Shown: in pieces, positions 39,601 through 50,500 of the stretch
How the letters are laid out: each line of letters opens with the position of its first letter
Numbering within the stretch: position 1 is the stretch's first letter
Source: an uncultured delta proteobacterium
GTDB lineage: Bacteria; Myxococcota_A; Polyangia; Fen-1088
NCBI GenBank assembly: GCA_963767925.1
Contig: CAVYGB010000008.1
Span: 2,176,001-2,240,000 of the forward strand
Direction: 5' to 3'
Length of the DNA: 64,000 bases
Translations under genes and position numbers: made by a program
The notes under the pieces: model-generated
Seen by the model: the letters and a program-made list of their open reading frames with translations, nothing else
Database searches by the model: none
What the model was told of the DNA's origin: nothing

Positions 39601-39951
39601 GTTTTGGGAGCCGAAGGCAAGGCCAACCACCGAGGCGGCCGCCGCGATGGCCGCCCGGTGAAGTCCACCATTTGTGCGGCGGCGAGCACTGAGTTCGGCG
39701 CTCGACGACAACGTCTCGAGGACGCGGACCAGCGCCTTTACGAGCTCGCCTTTGGCCACAGCCTCGACCTCCGAGCCCGTCCGGGGTGGCGCGCAGACGA
39801 GCCAGCTCGGCGACGGGCCGGCGTCCCGAGAACTGTTGCTGGGAAAGGAGGACGGGAGTCGTTTCTCAGCAGCGCCGCGCTCTGAGACGTCGGCCAGCGG
39901 AGGCTGAGCGGGGCCTATGGGCACTAAGAGTGAGCCGCTGAAACCTGTGAA

Positions 39952-40753
39952 TTACGCACGAGAGGCAGCGTTGAAGGCAATCAGCGCACAGGCGAGCCGA
40001 ACGAAGGCTAAGTAATTCTCGGCTTTGCGTTCCCAGCGGATGAGAAGACCTCGATATCGGTTGTGCCAGCTGTTGGTGCGCTCTACCACCCAGCGTCGCG
40101 GCCTACCGTGAACACAGCCGACCAGTGGTGGTTCGCCTCGCCGGCGGATGTGAGGAACGATTCGACGGCGGCGAACCTCCTGCTCACAGTCGGCGTAGTC
40201 GTAGCCTTTGTCGAGGCACAAGTTCTTGGGGCGACGTGGACCACGAGGGCCCCGCAGGACCATGGCATCCAGGGTCTGGCCCACCATCCACTTGTCGTGC
40301 ACGTTCGCCCCTGTGATGGTGACGGCCAGGGGCACGCCGTCGGCGTCGGTCAGGATGTGGCGCTTGGTCCCGAGTTTGGCCCGATCGGTCGGACTGGGGC
40401 CGGTGAGGTCCCCCCTTTTGGTGCCTTGACAGTGGCGCTGTCGAGCGAGCACCAGCTCAGGTCGACGCCAACATGCTGGTCGTAGTAGAGGACCATCTCC
40501 ACGTGCATCATGTGGAACACGCCCGCCGCTCGCCACTGCTGGAACCGGTGGTAGCACACGCTGCCGCTGCCGAACTCGCGGGGGATGGCATCCCATTGGG
40601 CACCCGGTCTTGAGCTTGTAGACGATTCCGGACATGACCTTGCGGTTGTCGTTCGGCGGTCGGCCGCCTTTGGGACTGCGTGCTCGCTTGGGAATCCCAA
40701 ACGCGCGTGCACTCCCAAACCTCTTCGGGGATGTCTTCGAATTGTGCCGTCAT
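39952..40753 (-). CDS. IS5-family DDE transposase (probable programmed frameshift at AAAAGGGGGG plus two extra indels)
   Basis: GIVYKLKTGC, QWDAIPREFG, LDSATVKAPKGG, GTKRHILTD, DKGYD, RRWVVERTNSW. Confidence 0.92.
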
Positions 40754-40898
40754 GGACAGTAGAGATCACGACCTGACGGGCTCGGCAAATTTTCGCTTGA
40801 ATTGGCACTCGCGCACCGTCGGTTGCAGCCACTGCGATGTCCCGGTCGCTGGTCTGGTCGGGCGCAACCAAGCCCCAACCGCCGCCGATAACCTGGTC

Positions 40899-41268
40899 AT
40901 GTCGCCGGGGCCCCGCACCTTTGACCATCATCGGCTCGACGCTTTCTGCGTGGCCCGCGATGCTCTACGCTTGGGCGACGCTCTTGCGCGGAGAATGCCA
41001 CGCGGGTATGCGACGTTGCAGGACCAGCTTCGGCGCGCTGTTGTCGGCATACCTGGGCATCGCCGAGGCATCCAGCCGAACGGGCGCCGACAGGATCTCA
41101 CGGTTCCGCACCGCCAGAGGCGAAGCGTCCGAGGCGGCAGCCGCCTTGGAGGCGGTTGCAATCCTGGGACTTGCTCCCGATACCGAGATCGAAGCGGTGA
41201 TGTCTCTGCTCGACCGGCTGTGCGCGATGCTCACTCGGCTCGCCGGCATGCACCGCCACCAACCCTGA
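40899..41268 (+). CDS. Four-helix-bundle protein (23S rRNA IVP/Avd-like fold), frameshift near 41037
   Basis: FDHHRLDAFCVA, LQDQLRRA, then S.YLGIAEASSR...RFRTARGEASE...LDRLCAMLTRL in the next frame. Confidence 0.85.
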
Positions 41269-41283
41269 TGACTGCCGCGGCTG

Positions 41284-41461
41284 TCGTGGTCGTGCTCGTG
41301 TGCGAGCCCGTGTTCGAGTTCGTGTCCGTGTGTGGTGAGCGTGTTCGGCCCGCGGGCCTCGGCTCGCGTGATTTACGCGCACCGAGAGCCGCCTGGCCGC
41401 TCAACGCTCGCCCCACACGAACTCGAACACGAACACGCGCTCGAACACGCCCACGAGCACG
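41284..41461. repeat. Long imperfect hairpin with arms made of CG(T/A)GNN hexamer repeats
   Basis: Left CGTGCTCGTGTGCGAGCCCGTGTTCGAGTTCGTG... pairs with right ...CACGAACTCGAACACGAACACGCGCTCGAACACGCCCACGAGCACG; apex GCGTG-ATT-TACGC. Confidence 0.9.
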
Positions 41462-41527
41462 CGTCCCGCCCTCGATACCTCGTTTCGCCCATCGGCGCAA
41501 ATTCTCCACAGGTTTCAGCGGCTGGCT

Positions 41528-44500
41528 CTAAGTCCGGGGCAAGCTGGCCAGCGCCTGGCGCAGGTCCGCGTTTTTGGGGTCGGTCTCCAGGCCCCGCTCG
41601 AAGAGGTTGCGGGCCTTGGGGACCTCGTTGGCCGCCAGGTGCAGGCGTCCGAGGGACAGGTAGACCTCGGCCTTGGTGATGCCTGCCGCCTTCTCGTCGA
41701 AGCTCTGCAGCAGCAGGGCCCGGAAGTAGCGGCGCGCCTTCTCGCTGTTGCCCTCGGCCAGGGCCAGCCGCCCCAGCGAGGCCACCACGGCCGGCTGGGC
41801 CGGGTCGAGCTGGTAGGCCGCCTCGAACCGCTGCAGGGCCGCCGCGTTGTCGCCCCGGCGCTCGGCCAGGCCGCCGAGCGCACGTTGCACGCGGGCCAGC
41901 GCCCGGTTCTGCTTGGCCTTGCCGAGCTTCTGGGCCAGCTCGAGCAGGATCTTCTCGGCCTCCTCGGTGCGGCCGGCGGCCGCCATGGCCGCCGCCAGAT
42001 CCTCCTGGACCTGGGGGTCGCCCCCGTCCTGGGCGGCCAGCTCCGAGAGGGCCGTCACCGCGCGGTCGGGCGCCGCCAGCGGCCCCCGATAGAGGGCGGC
42101 GATCTCGCTCAGGAGCGCCTTGCGATCGCTCGCCGGCGTGTGCTTGAGCCGCTGCTCGAGCAGCTTGACCAGCCGGGCCGAGTCGCCCTGCTTGCGCGCC
42201 CGCTCCTCCGCGGCCCGGGCCCCTTCGGGGTGGTCGGGATCGGCGTCGAGGGCCGCCCGCAGCGCGGTCTCCACCTCCGTGTCGGAGGCACCCTGCGCGG
42301 CGAGCACCCGGCTGCGCCGGAAGTGCACCTCCGCCCGATCACGGTTGGTCCCGGTGGCCCGGGCGGCCCGCTCGAGCACCGAGGCGGCCTCACCCCACTG
42401 CTCGTCCTGCTCGTGCAGGGCGGCCAGCGCCAGCAAGGCGCCGGCGTGGTCCTCCTTGCGGGCCAGGATCTTGTCCACCGACTCGCGGGCGCTCTGCTTG
42501 TCGCCCAGCCGCCGGCTCCAGATGTCGGCGATGGCCAGCCGGCTGGCCAGCTCGGCCTCCACGTCCTTGGCCCCCTCCAGGTTGGCCCGCCGCTCGTGCA
42601 GCTCGATCAGGTCGTACCAGCGCTCGTGCTGCTCGAGCAGGCGGGTGAGCCGGTCGGTGGCCCCCCGGTTGACCGGGTCGATGTCCAGGATCTGGTGCAG
42701 GTAGCTGGTGGCCCGCTCCACGTCCGTCAGGCGCTCCTCGGCGTTGCGAGCGAGCGCGAGCAGGGCGTCCACCTTCTCCCCACCCTCCGCGACGGACAGC
42801 CGGCGCAGCAGGACCTCCTCGAGCGCCGAGTAGTCCCCCCGCCCCTCCTCGAGCGCGGCCAGGGCGGCCAGCGCCGACCGATCGGCCGGCGAGATGTCGA
42901 GCACCTCACGGAAGGCCGCCGCGGCGCCGTCGTTGTCCTGCAGGGGGCCCCGCCGCAGCTCTCCGATCCGGAAGAACAGGGAGGCCCGCTCCTCCTTCAC
43001 CTCGCTCACCCGGGCCCGGTCCTCGAGGACCGCGACGAGCTGGGCGGTGTTGCCCTGCTGCTCGAGCAGCCGGGCCAGCTCGTCGAGCGCCTCGGTGTTG
43101 CCCTGATCGTCGTCCCGGATGGCCTGCCAGGCCGCGGTGGCGGAGGCCGCCTCCCCCAGGCCCTCGAACAGGCGCGCCGCCTCGGCGTAAAACGTCCGCC
43201 GGCGCTCCGACTCCATCTCGACCGCCCCCCGCTGCTCGAGCACCTTGGCCAGCTTCTCGTTCTCGTTGCGGCTGCGGTAGAGGTTCTCCAGGGCCTCCAG
43301 GGCCCGGCCGTTCTCCGCCTCCTCGACGAGGACCCGCCGGTACAGGCGCTCGGCCTCCGCGTGATAGGCGTTCTTGGGGGTGGCCGCCCGCTCGTACAGG
43401 GCGGCGGCGCGCAGGCTCAGCTCGACGAGCCCCCCACCTCCGGCCTGCTGATCGAGGGCCGCCTCCATGGCCCGGGCCGCGGCGATGGGCTGGTTCTGGG
43501 CCAGGGCCACCCGCTCGAGGGCCTCGGCCGTGTCGGGCACCGAGGGGTCCTCCTTGAGCGAATGCCCGAGCGCCTCGAGGGCCCGGGTGTGATCGCTCAG
43601 CTTGGTCTCGGCGATCTCGGCCACCCGCTTCCACCACATCCCCCGCTCGGGCCCCCCGCTCTCGAGCGCCACCCGCACCTGGTAAAGCGAGGCCAGCTCG
43701 GCGTAGTCGCCCCGGCTCTCGGCCAGCGGCTCGAGGATGTCGACCACCTCCCGGCGCAGCTCGACGTCGGACAGCAGGTCCCGCAGGGCGGAGAGCGCCT
43801 TGGGGTGGGTGGGCAGCCGCTCGAGGGCGTCCCGGAAGGCGGTGACCGACCCTTCGCGGTCGGCCAGCTTGCCCAGGCGCAGCTCACCGAGCGAGGCCAG
43901 CAAGGTGGCCTGCTGGGTGGCATCGTGGGTCACCTCCACCTCGCGCTCGAGCACCTCTTCGAGGTCCTTCCAGCGCCCCAGCTTCGTGAGCAGCACCTCC
44001 AGCCGGGCCAGCGCCGCGACCTCCTGGCCGGGCACGCTGGCAATCCGCCGCAGGAAATCTGCCGCCCGGCTCGAGTTGTCGAGCCGCTCCTCGTACAGGC
44101 CGGCGACCTGCCAGGCCAGGCTCTGCTCCAGCTCGGGGTCGATGCTCTGGGAGAGCTGGGCCTCGTACACCTCGGCCAGGCGGGCGTATTCGCCGCTGGC
44201 CGCCGCCAGGCGGTCGAGCGCCTCGCGGGGGACCGCCTCCCGGGGATCCTCGGCGAAGGCGGCGCTCCAGGCCTCGAAGGCCAGCCGGCTATCGCCCTGC
44301 TCCTTCTCCCGGATGCGCGCGATCTCGGTGAGGATCTCGATGCGCACGCCGGGCGTCTCCTCCACCTGGAGCCGGAGCTCGAGCAGCTCGACGAGCTGAG
44401 CCCACTCGCGCTGAGCCCGCAGCACCGGCTCGAGGGCGGCGACCGCCTGCAGCCGGAAGGCCTCGGCGCCGGCGATCCGCCAGAGGGCCTCCCGGGCGGT

Positions 44501-47500
44501 CTCGTGCCCCGGGCTGCGGGTGAGGATGTCCCGGTAGCGGGCGATGGCGCCGCTGGTGTCCCCCAGGCTCTCGACCAGGTCGGCGGCCCGGAAGGCGAGG
44601 ATGTCCTGCTCGGGGCCCTTGGCCCCCGCCACCCTCAGATCGAGGACCTCGAGCAGCTCGATGTGGAGCTGCTCGCGGGTGAAGATCCGGTCGAGCATGG
44701 CCAGGGCGTCCGGATCGCCGGGGTTGGCGTCGAGCACCGCCCGGAGCTGGCTGGCCGCCTCGTGGGGCTCTTCCAGCTTCTCCTCGTAGACCCGGGCGCT
44801 GAGGAAGCGCAGGTAGCGCAGCGACTGGCCGTCCCGGGCCAGCTCGATCTTGCGCTGGTAGATCTCGACGAGGTTGCGCCACTGGCTGGAGGCCACGTAA
44901 AGCCGGGCCAGGGCATCGAGCGCCTCCTCGTCGGAGTCGTCGATGTCGAGCACCCCCCGCCAGCCGTCGATGGCCTTGGCCGGGTTCTTGAGGGCGTCCT
45001 CGAACAGGACCGCCATGCGCTTGGTGAGGGCCTTGCGGCGCTCGGTGTCGCTGACGATCTCGAGGTGCTGCTCGAGCACCTCGGCCAGCTCGGTCTGCCG
45101 GCCGGCCTGGGCCAGCAAACGCTCCAGGGCGACGAACGACTCCTCGTCGTCGGGGCGGGCGGCGATGGCCGAGCGCCAGGCCTCGATGGCCCCCGGCGCG
45201 TCACCCAGCCGGGCCTCCCGGACCGAGGCGATCATCGACCAGAGCGCCGAGCAGAGGGCGGTGTCGGCGGCCCGTTCGGTGCCGCTGGTCAGGATCTCGA
45301 CCAGGGGCTGGTACAGGCGCCCGCTCGCCGCCAGCGGCTCCAGGGCGGCCAGGTTGCGGGTCGAGGAGACGTCCTCCAGCCAGGCTCGCCCCCGGGCGGC
45401 CAGCGCCCGGTCCAGCCGGCCGAGCCGCTCTTCCAGGCCCGCGATCTCGATTAGGACCTCGGCCCGCCGGTCCGAGTCGTCCTGGGTCTCCAGCGAGACC
45501 TCGAGCACGTCGGCCAGCCGGCGCCACTCCTGGGTGCGCCGGAAGTGGGGCTCGAGGATGCGCGCGGCCCGCACCCGCTGCTCGGGGTTCGAGAGCAGGC
45601 GCTCGAGAGCCCCCAGGGCCCCCGCGTGGCGGGGCATGCGCCCCAGGATCTCGCCGTAGCGCTCGACAGCCGCGTCGACGTCCTCGAGCTTTTGCTCCTC
45701 GACCTCGGCCAGCCGGAAGGCGATGCCGTTGAGGTCGCCGCCCATCTCGCTGACCTGCTCCAGCATCCACAGGAGGTGCTCGCGCAGGTCGGGCCAGCGC
45801 TCGTCGGCCCGCAGCAACGCCTCCAGGTCGGTGGCGGTGCGGGCGTCGCTGGCGTCGATGTCGAGCAGGCTGCGCAGGGTCGAGGCGGCCCGGCCCCGAT
45901 CGCCGAGGCTCTCGGCCGAGAGGGCCGCGCTCCGCCGCAGGTAGGGGATGCGGTCACCCGGCGAGGGGATGCGGGCGGCGTGCTCCTCCAGCAGATCGCG
46001 CAGCTCCTGCCAGGCCTCCCAGCGCTCGAGCGCCGTCTCGTAGAGGCGACAGGCCACGGCGTCGCCGGGCTGAGCCTCCACGTAGCGCCGGTAGTGCTTG
46101 CGGGCCGCCTCCCGGTCGCCCAGCCGCTCGTCGGCCACGATGGCGCACAGGCGCACCAGGGCCAGGACCTCGTCGCTGTTCGACGACTCCTGCTCGAGGT
46201 AGCGGGCGAACCAGTCGGCCACGTCGCGCCAGCGGTCCAGCTTCGGCGCCAGGCGCAGGAGCTGCTCCTGGGCGGTGCGGTCGAGCGGGGTCTCCCGGAA
46301 CAGGCGGCCGTACCAGCGAAAAGCCGCCTCCAGATCCTCGATCTGCTCCTCGTAGACCCGGGCGATCCGCTGGGTCAGGGCCAGGCGGCGCTGGGGATCT
46401 TCGCTGCGCTCGAGGCGCAGCTCATCGATGGCCACCAGCCGGCTCCAGGCGCTGCGGCGCACGTAGACCGGCTCGAGCAGATCGGCGGCGGCCACCTGGG
46501 TGTCGGGGTCGCTCACGAGCTGCTCGAGCTTCTGGATCGAGGGCTCGTGGTCCTGGTCGATCTGCAGGGCCGCGCTGATGTGCACGATGGCCTGCTGGCG
46601 GTCGCCCAGCTCGCCGAGGTGGATCTCGGCCAGGCGGTGGTGCAGCTCCACCGCGTCCTTGCTGGGCAGCCCCCGGGCGAGCTGCCGATCGAGCAGACCA
46701 ACCAGATCCCGCCACTGGCGGGACTCGCCGTACAGGCGATCGAGGGCGGTGTAGGCCTCCTCGTCGCCCGGCTTCAGGGCGAGGACCCGCTCGTAGGCCG
46801 CGACGGCGTCCTCGCGGTTGCCCAGGGTCACGGCCAGGGCCCCGATCTGCAGGCGCAGGGGGGCCTCGCTGGCCGGGCTCTCGCGCAGCAGCTCCGAGCG
46901 CCGCTGCAAGACATCGAGCAGGGCCGGCTTGTCGTCGGCCTTGCGGTACAGCCGGTCGAGGGCCATCAGCGTGTCGCCGTCCTCGGGCGCGCGCTCGTGA
47001 ACCTTGCGGTGCCACTCGGTGGCCAGCGCGTCGTCGCCGACCTCCTCGGCCCGCCGGGCCAGGGTGCGGGCCAGGCGCAGGCGGACGCCGTCGTCGAAGA
47101 TGTCCCCTTCGATCAACCGGTAGAGGTCGATCACCCGCCGGGCGCTGTCGCCGGCCGCGTCGCTGAGCCGCTCGTAGGCGTCGAGCAGCTCGCCGAGCTG
47201 GGGCTCGCCGAGCCCATCGAGGATGGCCGAGCCGTACGACTCCAGGGCCGCCGGGGAATCTCCCAGCCGCTCTTCCTGCAGGCGGGCCAGGCGGACCCGA
47301 TGGTTCATGCGGGCCCGGGGGTCCTCGTCGGTGGCGATGTAGAGCTCGACCAGCCCGGCCAGCTTGGCCCACTGGCTGGCCCGCTCGTAGAGCGGCTCGA
47401 GCACCTGGGCCGCCACCAGGCTGAGGGGATCGTCGGGGCGGGCGAGGTGGGCCTCCATCCGCTCGAGGGCCAGGGCGTCGGTGGGCTGGAGGTTGAGCAC

Positions 47501-50500
47501 CTCGTGCCAGCGATCGAGGGCGTCCTGCGGGCGGGCCAGGGGGCCTTCGAGGAGCTGGGCCATCCCCTGCAGGATGTCCACCCGCGCCTCCGCCCCGGTG
47601 GCGAGCTGCAGCCGGCGCTCGAGCACCTCCAGCCGCTCGGGGACGGCGCCCTTGCGCTCGTAGAGCGAGGCCAGCATCTCGAGGGCGGGCACGTTGTCCG
47701 GGTTCTCGTCGAGGATCGCCAGCGCGGTGGAGATGGCCTCGTCGACGTCCTCGAGATCGCGCTCGAGGATGACGGCCATGCGGAAGCGCAGCGCGCGGCG
47801 GCTGTCGGCGTCGCTCGACAGCTCCAGCCGGCGGCGCATGATGTCGATGCGCTCGCGCTGCTGCCCCAGCCGTTCGTAGAGGCGCTCGAGCTCGGCCAGG
47901 GTGGCCAGATCCTCGTCGTTGGCCTCGAGCAGCGAGCGGTAGGTGGTCACCGCGGCCGGCAGATCACCGAGGGACTTCTCCTCGATCTCGGCCACCCGGC
48001 GCAGGATCTCCATGCGCTCGCGGTCGTCGCTGGCCCAGTCGGCCTTCATCCGCAGGATGTCGACGAACCCCCGGAACTCGGCGATCTGGGCGTAGAGGAT
48101 CTCCAGGGCGTCGGCCGCCGGGCGCACGGTGTCGGCGTTCGACGAGTCGAGCTCGAGGATGCGCCGCCAGGTGCGGATGGCCGCCTCCCGATCTCCCAGC
48201 AGCGAGACCTGCAGCTTGGCGGCGCGGGTGAGCAGCTCGACCGCCGCCCCCAGGTGGGTGCCGGCGTTCTTGGCCGCCAGCTCCTCGTAGAGCGGGATGA
48301 GCTCGGCCTGCTTGCGGAGCTTGCCGGCGAGGCGCTCGACCTCGGCCAGGGCCGACAGGTTGTCGGGCTCGATGGCCAGGACGCGCCGCCAGGTCTTCGA
48401 GGCGGCCGTGTCGTCGCCGAGGCGGGTCTCCTCGAGGGCGGCGATCCGCCCCAGCAGCGCGGTGGCGGACATGCCCTCCCGCGACTCGATCTGGGCCTCC
48501 AGCACGCCCACCAGCTTGGTCCAGTCGCCGTTGCGCTCGTAGAGCGGCTCCAGGATGGCGGCGGTCCGCTGCCGGTGCTCGGGCAGGGGCAAGATGCGCC
48601 TCGAGCAACACGCGGGCCTCGCGCGTGCCCGGGCGCTGCGAGACCACCTCCTCGAGCAGGTCGAGGGCGCTCGAGGTCCGGCCGAGCTTCTCGTGGGCCA
48701 GCTCGGCCCGCCGGTACATCATCACGGCGGCGTCTTCGGGCGAGACCAGGGCCTGCTCCCGCTCGAGCAGGGTCTCCAGCTCCTTCCAGCCCTGGGCCGC
48801 GGCGTAGTGCTTCTCGAGGGCGCGGTAGGCCTTGAGGTCGTGCCGATCGACCTCGGTGATCTGCTGCAGGGTCGCGATGGCGTGGTGCCGATCTTCGACC
48901 AGGGCCTCGTCGATCTCGGCGATCTGCCAGAGCAGGGTGAGCCGCTCCTTGGGCTCGGGCAGGTTCTCCTGGCGCACCTCCAGCAGGTGGCGCAGATCGA
49001 TCCAGCGCTCGGCGTCGCGGTACAGGCGGGTCAGCGAGCGGTAGGCCCCGAAGTGCAGGGGGTCGAGGGCCAGGATCTCCAGATACACCCGCTCGGCCTC
49101 GGCCCCGCCGCCCGGCCGCTTCTCGTCGATCTCGGCCTGGTAGGCCAGCAGCTCACGCCGGAAGCCGCTCTCGTCGACCCGCTCGAGCACGCGGCGCACG
49201 GCCCCCAGCAGGTCCTCGAGCCCCTGGGCCTCGGGGGCCATGGCGAGCAGCCGCTCGCGGATCGAGGGGTCGTGGGGCTCGAGCTCGAAGATGCGGATGG
49301 CGGTGAGGAAGGCCGCCCTCGTGTCGTTGAGGGGGCCGGAGTGGAGGTCGACGAGGGTGCGCAGGTGGCCGAGGCGGTCGGCGGCCGACATCCGCTCGAC
49401 CAGCATCTCGAGGGCCTGGGCCCACTTCTTGTACTCCTCCTTGAGCTCGAAGTACGGGATGAGCCGGGTGACCACGTCGGACACCGCCGCCTCGTCGATG
49501 ACCTTGGACTCGAGCAGGCGCTCGAGCCCCGCCACCGCCTCCGGACAAACGGGGTCCATGTCGAGCGCCTCGATGTAGGCGGCCCGGGCCCGGTCGGGAT
49601 CGACGAGGGCGGTCTCGTGGAGCTGGGCGAGCCGGAGGATCGCCGACAGGGGATCGTTGGTCAGGCGATCGTCGATCTGCTTGCGGACGATCTCGGCCAC
49701 CGTACGCATGTCCCCGGTGGTCTCGGAGACGCGGGCCAGGGCGGTCAGCGCCTTGGCGTTGCGGGAGTCCTGCTCGAGGATGGTGCGCAGGGTGCGGCTG
49801 GCGGCCGGGAGATCCTTGAGCTCCTCCTCCTCGGCCTTGGCGATGCGGAACCTCAGCTCGGTCTTCTTGCTCCGGTCCTCGTAACGGGCCTCCCGCCGCC
49901 GCCAGATCTCGACCAGGCCGCCCCACTCCTTGCGCTCCTCGAGGATGCGGGCCAGCGCCCGCTCGGCCTCCTCGTCATCGGACAAGATGGCCAGGATCTG
50001 CTCGGAGCAGCGGCGGGCCTCCTCGACCCGGCCCAGGCGGGTGACGTAAACCCGCAGCAGCCGGCGCAGCACATCGACCCGTTCCTGCTCGCCCTCGATG
50101 CCGGCCGACAGGCGCCGGGTCAACAGCTCGGCGTAGGCCGCCCACTCGTCGGCGTCGCGGGCCAGCCGCTCGAGATCGGAGGCCACCCCCACGTCGATCG
50201 GCGCCAGGACGTAGGCCCGCGCGCACCACTGGAAGGCCACCGTGCGCGAGCCCAGCTTGTCCTCGCAGACCAGGCGGGCGTCGGCCAGCAGGCTGAGCCG
50301 CTCGGGCAAGGTCAAGGGCGCCTCGTCGGGATCGGTCACGTCGGGATCGGCGGGCGCGTCGAGCATCGACTCGTAGAGCGCCAGCAGCCGCCCCCAGCGC
50401 TCGGTCTCGCGGTAGAGCCGCATCAACATCCAGGCGGTGGCCCGGCTGCGGGGCCGCAGCGAGAGGATCCGCTCGTAGGCCTTGGTGGCCCGTTCGGGTT

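What the first reader, a model, noticed from the sequence alone, without database searches (positions are those of the whole stretch)
40785..41503. Candidate transposase-free mobile cassette (four-helix-bundle gene plus hairpin) nested inside an IS5
Seen: GCAAATT occurs at 40785-40791 and again at 41497-41503, between the transposase start and its upstream TIR. The 712 bp delimited this way contain only a ~120-aa four-helix-bundle gene and a ~170-nt repeat hairpin, with no TIRs and no recombinase. Removing it leaves an 889-bp IS with the TIR ~63 nt from the ATG. Established: that is the usual size and layout of short IS5-family (IS427/IS1031-like) elements. The four-helix-bundle family (23S IVP-like, same fold as DGR Avd) has no assigned function. 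Inference: the cassette entered a pre-existing IS with a 7-bp duplication or crossover, so the IS records the empty site of an uncharacterised mobile unit. Alternatively, the IS captured it as a passenger.
Basis: partly seen in the sequence, partly recalled or inferred. Interest (0 to 1): 0.82.

Follow-up and report, generated by a model that had tools for sequence, protein, structure and literature searches.

The report
Four-helix-bundle hairpin module inside an IS
A small insertion sequence carries an extra 700-base module (one small gene plus a long hairpin) that a related genome's copies lack, and close relatives of that gene sit in the same spot in unrelated insertion sequences, so the module looks like a portable add-on that rides on jumping genes.

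Summary
The element is an IS5-family (IS427-like) insertion sequence, 39928-41528. Between its transposase start and right inverted repeat lies a 702-nt segment (40795-41496). It holds a 123-codon four-helix-bundle gene (PF05635/TIGR02436), broken here by a 2-bp deletion, and a ~190-nt hexamer-repeat hairpin.

The direct repeat is 10 nt, not 7 (40785-40794 and 41497-41506, 9 of 10). Five homologous IS copies of ~0.89 kb in a related genome lack the segment and carry that 10-mer once, abutting the inverted repeat.

In this genome all 28 right ends carry the segment. It therefore entered before the IS diversified and now travels passively (4 full copies, about 25 derivatives).

- In a sister lineage the duplicated stretch is recognisable over ~29 nt, so a classical short target duplication is not certain.
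- Among 80 metagenome loci holding the gene's closest relatives, most show the same layout in an unrelated IS family. Single loci show PF13701-type and IS481-type transposases, and others have housekeeping neighbours.
- All 19 PF05635 matches in this genome lie in three IS families.

How the module enters is unknown. Earlier notes of this scan describe similar hairpin-armed cassettes on other DNA. I found no paper describing them.

The parts
39928..41528 (-). Whole insertion sequence (IS-A), 1601 bp, flanked by a 3-nt TNA target repeat inside a CTNAG context (39925-39927 and 41529-41531). The window copy is defective.
   Evidence: Four full-length copies are 98.9-100% identical exactly between these limits, with unrelated flanks. 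Terminal inverted repeats were found.
39923..39949 (.). Left terminal inverted repeat (arm as reported, flanking target letters included).
   Evidence: pair I5: 27 nt, 89% complementary to 41507-41533.
41507..41533 (.). Right terminal inverted repeat.
   Evidence: pair I5. Conserved in 28 right ends in the genome.
39952..40753 (-). Transposase: OrfA plus OrfB joined by a -1 frameshift site near 40411-40420. In the window copy it is also broken by private 1-nt insertions at 40598 and 40696.
   Evidence: The intact version in copy L001 gives OrfA with PF13340 (81.7 bits) and OrfB with PF01609 (64.7 bits). Both halves match NF033580, profile positions 4-105 and 111-257 of 258. Private insertions.
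40785..40794 (+). Left copy of the 10-nt direct repeat. It is the end of the IS's native subterminal segment.
   Evidence: It is present once, abutting the inverted repeat, in the three aligned empty homologues of G016.
40795..41496 (+). Inserted module, 702 nt: leader, four-helix-bundle gene, hairpin and a 3' tail.
   Evidence: Absent from the aligned empty IS copies. Present before all 28 right ends of this IS in the genome.
40899..41268 (+). Four-helix-bundle (23S-rRNA-IVS-protein family) gene, 123 codons. It is frameshifted in the window by a 2-bp deletion near 41036.
   Evidence: Window ORF: PF05635 24.5 bits, below the cut-off. Intact allele P0001 from a truncated copy: PF05635 40.6 bits (cut-off 33.8) and TIGR02436 44.3 bits (cut-off 24). 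The deletion is seen.
41277..41469 (+). Long imperfect hairpin whose arms are runs of 6-nt units.
   Evidence: arms of 58 nt, 83% complementary. (MFE -127.1 kcal/mol, z -8.4, 0 of 200 shuffles as stable). The arms are conserved in two IS lineages and in metagenome locus L113.
41497..41506 (+). Right copy of the 10-nt direct repeat (9 of 10 identical to the left copy), abutting the right inverted repeat.

Best explanation
This is an IS427-like IS5-family insertion sequence that acquired a portable ~700-nt accessory module before it diversified in this genome. The module is one four-helix-bundle gene followed by a long hexamer-repeat hairpin. It entered at the A/T-rich inner edge of the right inverted repeat and duplicated at least 10 nt of IS sequence.

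Since then the module has been carried passively. The IS transposase moves the whole 1.6-kb composite and its many deletion derivatives.

The module is not specific to this IS. Close relatives of its gene sit between the transposase start and the nearest inverted repeat of an unrelated IS family (DUF772-type). Single loci show the gene divergent from PF13701-type and IS481-type transposases. Others lie at sites without any IS.

Shown: the insertion, the flanking repeat, amplification by the IS, the recurrence in other IS families, and purifying selection on the protein.

Inferred: the module is delivered by a function supplied in trans that makes a target duplication at A/T-rich DNA. It persists only in the one non-coding gap of an IS where an insertion is tolerated.
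For: Empty site:
- Genome G016 holds 5 homologous IS copies (72-74% nt identity over the transposase) spanning 892-902 nt, without the segment.
- In the alignment, the three aligned G016 copies carry the 10-mer once, directly before the inverted repeat. The window has it on both sides of a 702-nt block.
- A 9-of-10 match in this register occurs at 16 of 63276 control positions.

Age and passive carriage:
- There are 4 full-length copies and about 25 derivatives.
- All 28 right ends are preceded by module sequence (25 of lineage A1, 3 of A2) and 0 are of the empty type.
- All 4 full-length copies share the 2-bp deletion in the gene, while truncated copies keep the frame.

Portability:
- Of 80 metagenome loci with relatives of the protein (37-91% aa identity; most 60-91%), 0 have the IS-A transposase.
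- 42 of 80 have a DUF772-type (IS-C) transposase. In 40 of the 68 loci with room, it is divergent and upstream.
- 24 of the 47 loci with room have the IS-C inverted-repeat core 130-250 nt past the gene.
- In IS-C the module starts directly at the inner edge of the inverted repeat, and a G033 copy is empty.
- L113, at 85% aa identity among the closest relatives and the only locus whose DNA match extends into the hairpin, has a PF13701-type transposase divergent upstream (31 bits, below the 34.7 cut-off, at a contig end). L148 has an IS481-type one.
- Other loci have housekeeping neighbours: DnaB/SDR, Crp, Rieske, GH3.
- A related cassette in G023 sits between a porin-like gene and der. The same intergenic region in same-genus G033 and G008 lacks it.
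- G040 has 7 copies (87-91% identical) of a ~700-nt four-helix-bundle cassette with unrelated flanks.

This genome: all 19 PF05635 matches lie in three IS families.

Selection: median dN/dS is 0.12 against 37 relatives.
Against: - No enzyme that could move the module was identified, and its ends show no inverted repeat.
- In the sister lineage A2, the stretch between hairpin and inverted repeat matches the native IS subterminal segment over 27 aligned nt (24 identical, one 2-nt gap, 0 of 2000 shuffles). The duplication may therefore have been about 29 nt. That is longer than the duplications I recall for DDE transposases, and it fits replication or recombination errors as well.
- That stretch is closer to the G016 sequence than the left copy is, which a simple duplication does not predict.
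- Only one entry event into this IS is on record, because the left junction is identical in both lineages.
- Boundaries of other copies could not be fixed. The G023 orthologous regions are too diverged, and the G040 3' ends are blurred by arrays.
- The metagenome loci are not independent. Many are the same element from several samples.
- IS-borne copies are over-sampled because they are multi-copy.
- dS is saturated, so the dN/dS ratio is rough.
Confidence: 0.5

Rival explanations
1. End-module exchange between insertion sequences by recombination or replication template switching. The long hairpin stalls replication, and short A/T-rich similarity next to the inverted repeats of different IS families lets the segment 'gene + hairpin' be copied from one IS end into another. 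The flanking repeat is a by-product of the switch, not a transposase footprint. The module has no mobility of its own.
For: - In most metagenome loci with room (40 of 68), the gene's relatives lie in another IS family in the same position and orientation.
- The duplicated stretch is about 29 nt in lineage A2, which is long and of irregular length.
- No inverted repeats or recombinase are present in the module.
- The genome holds at least 10 right-end-only IS fragments, which shows frequent rearrangement at these elements.
- In both IS families the module abuts the inner edge of the inverted repeat.
Against: - Cassettes of the same design occur at IS-free sites between housekeeping genes.
- A 7-copy family without transposase exists in G040, which exchange between IS ends does not explain.
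- No donor IS-C copy carrying this gene subfamily is present in this assembly. The single IS-C copy here carries a different four-helix-bundle gene in the other orientation.
- Similarity between the module ends and the IS-C inverted repeat was seen only by eye. The scripted test was not run.
Confidence: 0.3
2. RNA-mediated insertion. The segment is a reverse-transcribed copy of a monocistronic transcript (leader, gene, 3' hairpin). The Avd-like four-helix-bundle protein binds its own hairpin RNA and recruits a reverse transcriptase, which primes at a nick in A/T-rich DNA and leaves a duplication of variable length.
For: - The segment runs from ~104 nt before the ATG to ~28 nt past a 3' hairpin, the shape of a transcript.
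- It lacks the upstream repeat arm that the G023 relative has, as a 5'-truncated copy would.
- The duplication is 10 to about 29 nt long at an A/T-rich site.
- The protein family includes the DGR accessory protein, per the Pfam bAvd hit on a relative and PMC10053308, of which I saw the search listing and abstract start only.
- Group II introns, which encode reverse transcriptase, are active in this genome and sit in these very hairpins.
Against: - No reverse transcriptase is linked to the module in the window or in the 80 metagenome loci. Of these, only ORFs upstream of the gene in the 28 loci without an IS-C hit were scanned.
- There is no 3' tail signature.
- Every feature cited has a DNA-level explanation.
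Confidence: 0.08
3. The segment is an original part of this IS, and the G016 lineage lost it by deletion between the direct repeats.
For: - Deletion between 10-nt repeats would leave exactly the single copy seen in G016.
- All copies in this genome carry the segment.
Against: - The three aligned G016 copies, including variants 88-89% identical to each other, lack it, as do the two near-identical further copies by their span.
- From recall of ISfinder, IS427-group elements are about 0.8-1.3 kb without passenger genes.
- The gene's relatives lie in unrelated IS families and in IS-free sites, so the module is clearly exchanged horizontally.
Confidence: 0.05

Closest known systems
IS5-family insertion sequences of the IS427/IS1031 kind (NCBIfam NF033580); the group name is recalled from ISfinder
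   Same: - Two-ORF DDE transposase with a -1 frameshift site.
- Terminal inverted repeats of ~25 nt.
- TNA target repeat in a CTNAG context.
- Multi-copy, with deletion derivatives.
   Different: It carries 712 extra nt with a gene and a hairpin between the transposase start and the inverted repeat. The homologue in G016 has the usual ~0.89-kb layout.
ORF-bearing intervening sequences of 23S rRNA (Coxiella burnetii IVS with S23p; PMC4990558, passages read)
   Same: - Same protein family (PF05635).
- A small gene tied to a long stable stem.
- Sporadic distribution.
- Origin and mobility are stated as unclear in that paper, which cites the old ideas of a transposition remnant or a mobile element whose ORF aids mobility.
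   Different: - It is not in rRNA; it lies inside an IS.
- The stem lies 3' of the gene and does not enclose it.
- Here an empty site and a flanking duplication are visible at the DNA level.
- RNase III cutting was not tested.
Passenger-carrying IS and mobile insertion cassettes (tIS, MIC, MITE; names recalled, not from a call)
   Same: - A non-transposase gene rides between IS ends.
- Transposase-less derivatives are multi-copy: the 617-nt IS-A derivatives in 4 copies and the 1426-nt family-B element in 4 copies.
   Different: - The passenger is a discrete module with its own hairpin.
- It recurs in several unrelated IS families and at IS-free sites.
- It shows no inverted repeats of its own.
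Avd accessory protein of diversity-generating retroelements
   Same: Related four-helix-bundle fold family. One relative's locus (L073) is a real DGR with bAvd and a reverse transcriptase.
   Different: There is no reverse transcriptase, template repeat or variable repeat in or beside this module.

Membership tests
IS5 family, IS427-like (NF033580) | DDE transposase matching the family models | tested here: met
   Intact copy L001: OrfA gives NF033580 94.8 bits over profile 4-105, OrfB 132.5 bits over 111-257. Pfam gives PF13340 and PF01609. Each half alone is below or near the 110-bit whole-protein cut-off; together they cover the model.
IS5 family, IS427-like (NF033580) | Terminal inverted repeats, short target repeat and several copies with unrelated flanks | tested here: met
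   The inverted repeats are 27 nt and 89% complementary. CTNAG/TNA flanks are present in 4 full copies, with one copy mismatched at N. There are 4 full copies and about 25 partial ones.
IS5 family, IS427-like (NF033580) | Compact size (~0.8-1.3 kb, recalled) with no passenger gene | tested here: not met
   The IS is 1601 bp here because of the 712-nt block. The feature is met by the G016 homologue, at 892-902 nt.
PF05635 / TIGR02436 four-helix-bundle (23S rRNA IVS protein) | Profile match above the curated cut-off | tested here: met
   Intact allele P0001: PF05635 40.6 bits (cut-off 33.8) and TIGR02436 44.3 bits (cut-off 24). The window's frameshifted ORF reaches only 24.5 bits.
PF05635 / TIGR02436 four-helix-bundle (23S rRNA IVS protein) | Four-helix-bundle fold | not tested
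   No structure was predicted. The only solved relative by sequence is 2gsc_A (E 3.6e-5).
23S rRNA intervening sequence (IVS) | Lies in a 23S rRNA helix and is cut out of the precursor by RNase III | tested here: not met
   The module lies in an IS between a transposase gene and an inverted repeat. No rRNA family was reported in the locus holding the window IS (L007). RNase III cutting is not testable here.
23S rRNA intervening sequence (IVS) | Terminal inverted repeats form a stem that encloses the ORF | tested here: not met
   Both hairpin arms lie 3' of the gene. Enclosing arms are present in the G023 relative, in 7 of 14 relatives' loci and in 8 of 36 metagenome loci.
DGR Avd | Adjacent reverse transcriptase with template and variable repeats | tested here: not met
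   The ORF list and Pfam scan of the IS show only the transposase and the four-helix-bundle gene.
MITE / mobile insertion cassette | Own terminal inverted repeats matching a transposase-encoding IS, and that IS's target duplication | tested here: inconclusive
   No inverted repeat joins the module's ends. A resemblance of its ends to the IS-C inverted repeat was seen by eye only, and the scripted comparison was not run. The flanking repeat (10 to about 29 nt) differs from the CTAG flanks seen at the IS-C copy and the four family-B copies in this genome.
Integron gene cassette | attC site with conserved core sites, and an integrase nearby | not tested
   No motif search was made. No integrase ORF lies in the IS.

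The most novel reading that the evidence does not exclude
The four-helix-bundle gene plus repeat hairpin is a parasite of parasites. On this reading it is a self-contained mobile module without a transposase of its own that homes to the A/T-rich inner edge of the inverted repeats of many unrelated insertion sequences, and to other A/T-rich spots such as terminator tails and rRNA helices. The Avd-like protein would recognise its own hairpin and direct a borrowed enzyme. The classic 23S rRNA intervening sequences would then be the ribosomal landing sites of the same element class.
Probability: 0.2. Interest if true: 0.85.

Novelty: new variant of a known kind. Interest (0 to 1): 0.62.

Why it matters
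The 23S-rRNA-IVS protein family is large and has no known function. How its hairpin-linked genes spread has been open since the 1990s (PMC4990558, discussion passages read).

This locus gives a rare clean before-and-after picture at the DNA level:
- the same IS with and without the module;
- the exact entry point, at the inner edge of an inverted repeat;
- a flanking duplication.

It also shows that the module recurs at the same place in unrelated IS families. That makes concrete experiments possible: binding of the protein to the hairpin, insertion traps using an empty IS end, and the effect of the module on transposition.

If the module targets IS ends, it would be a hyperparasitic element class. 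If it does not, it is a recurrent IS accessory module whose benefit to the IS is unknown.

My literature searches found no paper that describes four-helix-bundle genes as IS-borne modules. Most subscription journals are not in the library searched.

Tried and rejected
- Significance of the 7-mer alone: rejected (11933 of 20000 random pairs share a 7-mer).
- Empty copies in this genome: none among 28 right ends, and no 40794|41507 junction.
- Closer empty or filled relatives: a DNA search of 400 genomes of the class with the module gave only G023 and G398. The genome-contig scan with OrfA gave only distant hits. Other IS relatives (L009-L011) are fragments.
- Exact boundaries of the G023 cassette: the orthologous G033 and G008 regions are too diverged.
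- Orthologous empty site for the same-genus G001 cassette: its flanks are not syntenic in G000.
- Genome-wide census of hexamer hairpins with TRF: too noisy in this GC-rich genome, so dropped.
- Promoter and terminator scan: nothing above shuffles.
- Upstream homology between the module and IS-C-borne relatives: not alignable beyond ~20 nt before the ATG.
- Covariation in the hairpin: only 6 of 58 pairs show compensatory change because the arms are conserved in sequence, so this is no independent proof of structure.
- Second batch of 11 of the 25 relatives' loci was not scanned for transposases. One search covered 14 loci (111 ORFs) and found no transposase domain.
- Scripted comparison of the module ends with the IS-C inverted repeats: not run, so it remains open whether the module carries remnants of that repeat.

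Full report
**What is at the coordinates**

The window is G000:C8:2176001-2240000. The stretch 39928-41528 is an insertion sequence, here called IS-A.
- Its terminal inverted repeats are 27 nt long and 89% complementary (39923-39949 and 41507-41533).
- Four full-length copies in the genome are 98.9-100% identical exactly between these limits and have unrelated flanks.
- They are bordered by a TNA repeat inside a CTNAG context. One of the four copies is mismatched at N.

The transposase runs on the minus strand.
- In copy L001 it is intact, as OrfA (133 aa) and OrfB joined at a slippery site near 40411-40420.
- It matches NF033580 (IS5 family) over profile positions 4-105 and 111-257 of 258, plus PF13340 and PF01609.
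- The window copy has two private 1-nt insertions, at 40598 and 40696, and is therefore defective.

**The segment**

Between the transposase start (40753) and the right inverted repeat lie two features.
- A four-helix-bundle gene on the plus strand (ATG 40899, stop 41266-41268).
- A long hairpin at about 41277-41469, with arms made of 6-nt units. Its RNA MFE is -127.1 kcal/mol, z -8.4, and 0 of 200 shuffles are as stable.

The gene is split over two frames in the window and in two other full copies by the same 2-bp deletion near 41036. The fourth full copy shares that deletion and has a further small change nearby.

Several truncated copies keep the undeleted frame. One of them gives an intact 123-aa protein, P0001. 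P0001 passes PF05635 (40.6 bits, cut-off 33.8) and TIGR02436 (44.3 bits, cut-off 24). Its only solved relative by sequence is 2gsc_A (E 3.6e-5).

**The repeat**

On its own it means nothing, because random pairs of window stretches of the same sizes share a 7-mer in 11933 of 20000 draws.

The decisive evidence is an empty homologue.
- Genome G016, in the same family, holds 5 copies of an IS that is 72-74% identical over the transposase. They span 892-902 nt and have their own TNA flanks.
- I aligned three of them, which are 88-89% identical to each other, to the window. Each carries the 10 nt equivalent to 40785-40794 once, directly before the inverted repeat.
- The window has this 10-mer, then 702 nt (40795-41496), then the 10-mer again with one change (41497-41506), then the inverted repeat.
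- A 9-of-10 match in this fixed register occurs at 16 of 63276 control positions.

**History inside this genome**

BLAST finds 4 full copies and about 25 deletion derivatives or one-ended fragments.
- These include four 617-nt transposase-less copies.
- All 28 recognisable right ends are preceded by module sequence, and none is of the empty type.

Two lineages exist, A1 (25 right ends) and A2 (3 right ends). They are about 87-89% identical, differ in matching fashion in both inverted repeats, and share the identical left junction. The module therefore entered once, before the lineages split, and has since been moved by the IS.

The four transposition-competent-looking copies all carry the broken gene, so the gene is not needed in cis for recent moves. 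Help in trans from intact alleles is not excluded.

**A complication for a simple target duplication**

In lineage A2, the stretch between hairpin and inverted repeat matches the native subterminal segment of the empty G016 IS over 27 aligned nt. There are 24 identities and one 2-nt gap, and 0 of 2000 shuffles reach the score.
- The duplicated IS sequence may therefore have been about 29 nt, with the right-hand copy eroded in lineage A1 to 10-13 nt.
- The A2 stretch is closer to G016 than the left copy is, which a plain duplication does not predict.

I therefore treat the length, and with it the mechanism, as open.

**The module elsewhere**

A scan of metagenome contigs with P0001 returned 80 loci, at 37-91% aa identity (most 60-91%).
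- None has the IS-A transposase.
- 42 of 80 have a DUF772-type transposase, 75-78% identical to the single such IS in this genome (here IS-C). In 40 of the 68 loci with at least 300 nt of room, it lies upstream and divergent.
- In 24 of the 47 loci with room, the core of the IS-C inverted repeat lies 130-250 nt past the gene's stop.
- Aligned to an empty IS-C of genome G033 (two identical 1741-bp copies), the module again begins directly at the inner edge of the inverted repeat.
- L113, at 85% aa identity among the closest relatives and the only locus whose DNA match extends into the hairpin, has a PF13701-type transposase divergent upstream. The hit is 31 bits, below the cut-off, and is cut by the contig end.
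- L148 has an IS481-type transposase in the same arrangement. L181 and L182, with distant genes, have another DUF772 transposase.
- Other loci have housekeeping neighbours: DnaB and a dehydrogenase, Crp, Rieske, GH3, hydrolases.

Many of these loci are the same element from different samples, so the counts overstate independence.

**Other relatives**

- The G023 relative (71% nt identity over the gene) lies between a porin-like gene and der, with repeat arms on both sides. The same intergenic region in two same-genus genomes is 128 and 255 nt long and lacks it.
- In 14 of 25 four-helix-bundle loci from related genomes, none of 111 ORFs of 170 aa or more within 1.5 kb has a transposase domain. 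One locus is a true DGR.
- In a partly overlapping set of 14 loci, 7 have inverted arrays of 6- or 7-nt units bracketing the gene.
- Genome G040 has 7 copies, 87-91% identical, of a ~700-nt cassette with unrelated flanks and no room for a transposase.

**This genome as a whole**

All 19 PF05635 matches lie in repeated elements.
- 12 lie in IS-A copies.
- 6 lie in a 1426-bp element, family B. It has 4 complete copies, CTAG flanks, hexamer arrays near both ends, an intact gene at 80 bits, and a PF13701 transposase reduced to profile positions 4-39 and 331-430.
- 1 lies in IS-C, a 2270-bp element with 30-nt inverted repeats, in the order arrays, gene, transposase.

A G049 relative of IS-C has gene-less arrays at the same place, and G033 has nothing there.

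**Selection**

Against 37 relatives, the median dN/dS of the gene is 0.12. dS is saturated, so the figure is rough. The protein is under purifying selection across hosts even though the active IS-A copies here carry a dead allele.

**Reading**

The insertion into a pre-existing short IS is well supported, and the module is clearly exchanged among unrelated IS families and IS-free sites. Its constant position, in the only sizeable non-coding gap of an IS next to the inverted repeat, can be explained by tolerance alone.

How it enters is not shown. I put odds as follows:
- about 0.5 on a trans-mobilised unit making a target duplication;
- 0.3 on recombination or template switching between IS ends, promoted by the hairpin;
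- under 0.1 each on an RNA-mediated copy and on loss in the G016 lineage.

**Literature**

- PMC4990558 (passages read) states that the origin of rRNA intervening sequences is unclear. It cites the transposition-remnant and mobile-element ideas.
- PMC10053308 is the only paper in the library naming PF05635, and it concerns DGRs (listing and abstract start only).
- Searches found nothing on such genes as IS modules.

Earlier notes of this scan describe hairpin-armed cassettes of this gene family on other DNA, one with an 8-bp A/T-rich duplication. I used them as leads. The arrays around relatives and the filled/empty states were checked here.

Noticed in passing
L005:1306-3334 (G000:C2:1846951-1848979); also ends at G000:C2:1148914, C2:~1092594-1094770 and C2:504797: A ~2-kb group II intron (Rfam RF02005 118 bits and RF00029 42 bits) is inserted in the hexamer arms of the module's hairpin in at least four IS copies. 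Twice it sits at the position equivalent to window 41431/41432, and once on the opposite strand in the other arm. The intron seems to home to the repeat units of this hairpin.
   Followed up: partly
window 41528-41532 and ORF 41528-48592 (-): The stop codon of a 2354-aa TPR-repeat gene overlaps the CTNAG target at the right end of the IS. The insertion may therefore have altered the last codons of that gene.
   Followed up: no
G000: C2:715617, C2:568863, C2:1712970, C4:81012, C6:335536, C8:2748854, C10:1777635 and others: At least ten copies keep an intact right end but are cut off at different internal points, with no left inverted repeat beside them. Two of these abut the end of another repeated element. 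One-ended truncation at this frequency is unexplained.
   Followed up: partly
G000:C2:~1095050 (copy of lineage A2), equivalent to window ~41036: A ~35-nt GC-rich palindromic insert sits in the four-helix-bundle gene exactly at the short GC repeat where the full-length copies have their 2-bp deletion. This looks like a local hotspot for slippage.
   Followed up: no
L025 (G049:C211), between the inverted repeat and the transposase: An IS-C relative carries ~330 nt of hexamer arrays without any gene at the place where other copies carry array plus gene. This may be a gutted module.
   Followed up: partly
L063 (G001:C802) ~1380-1960: In the same-genus genome, a four-helix-bundle gene bracketed by 58-nt arms of a 6-nt unit (95% complementary) sits directly after the T-run of a terminator-like hairpin. 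This is another A/T-rich island in GC-rich DNA.
   Followed up: partly
G000:C10:1775105-1778044: A full IS-A copy and a right-end fragment lie 0.9 kb apart. The fragment ends 49 nt before the G000 match (74% nt identity) to the gene that flanks the G001 cassette. This may be coincidence.
   Followed up: no
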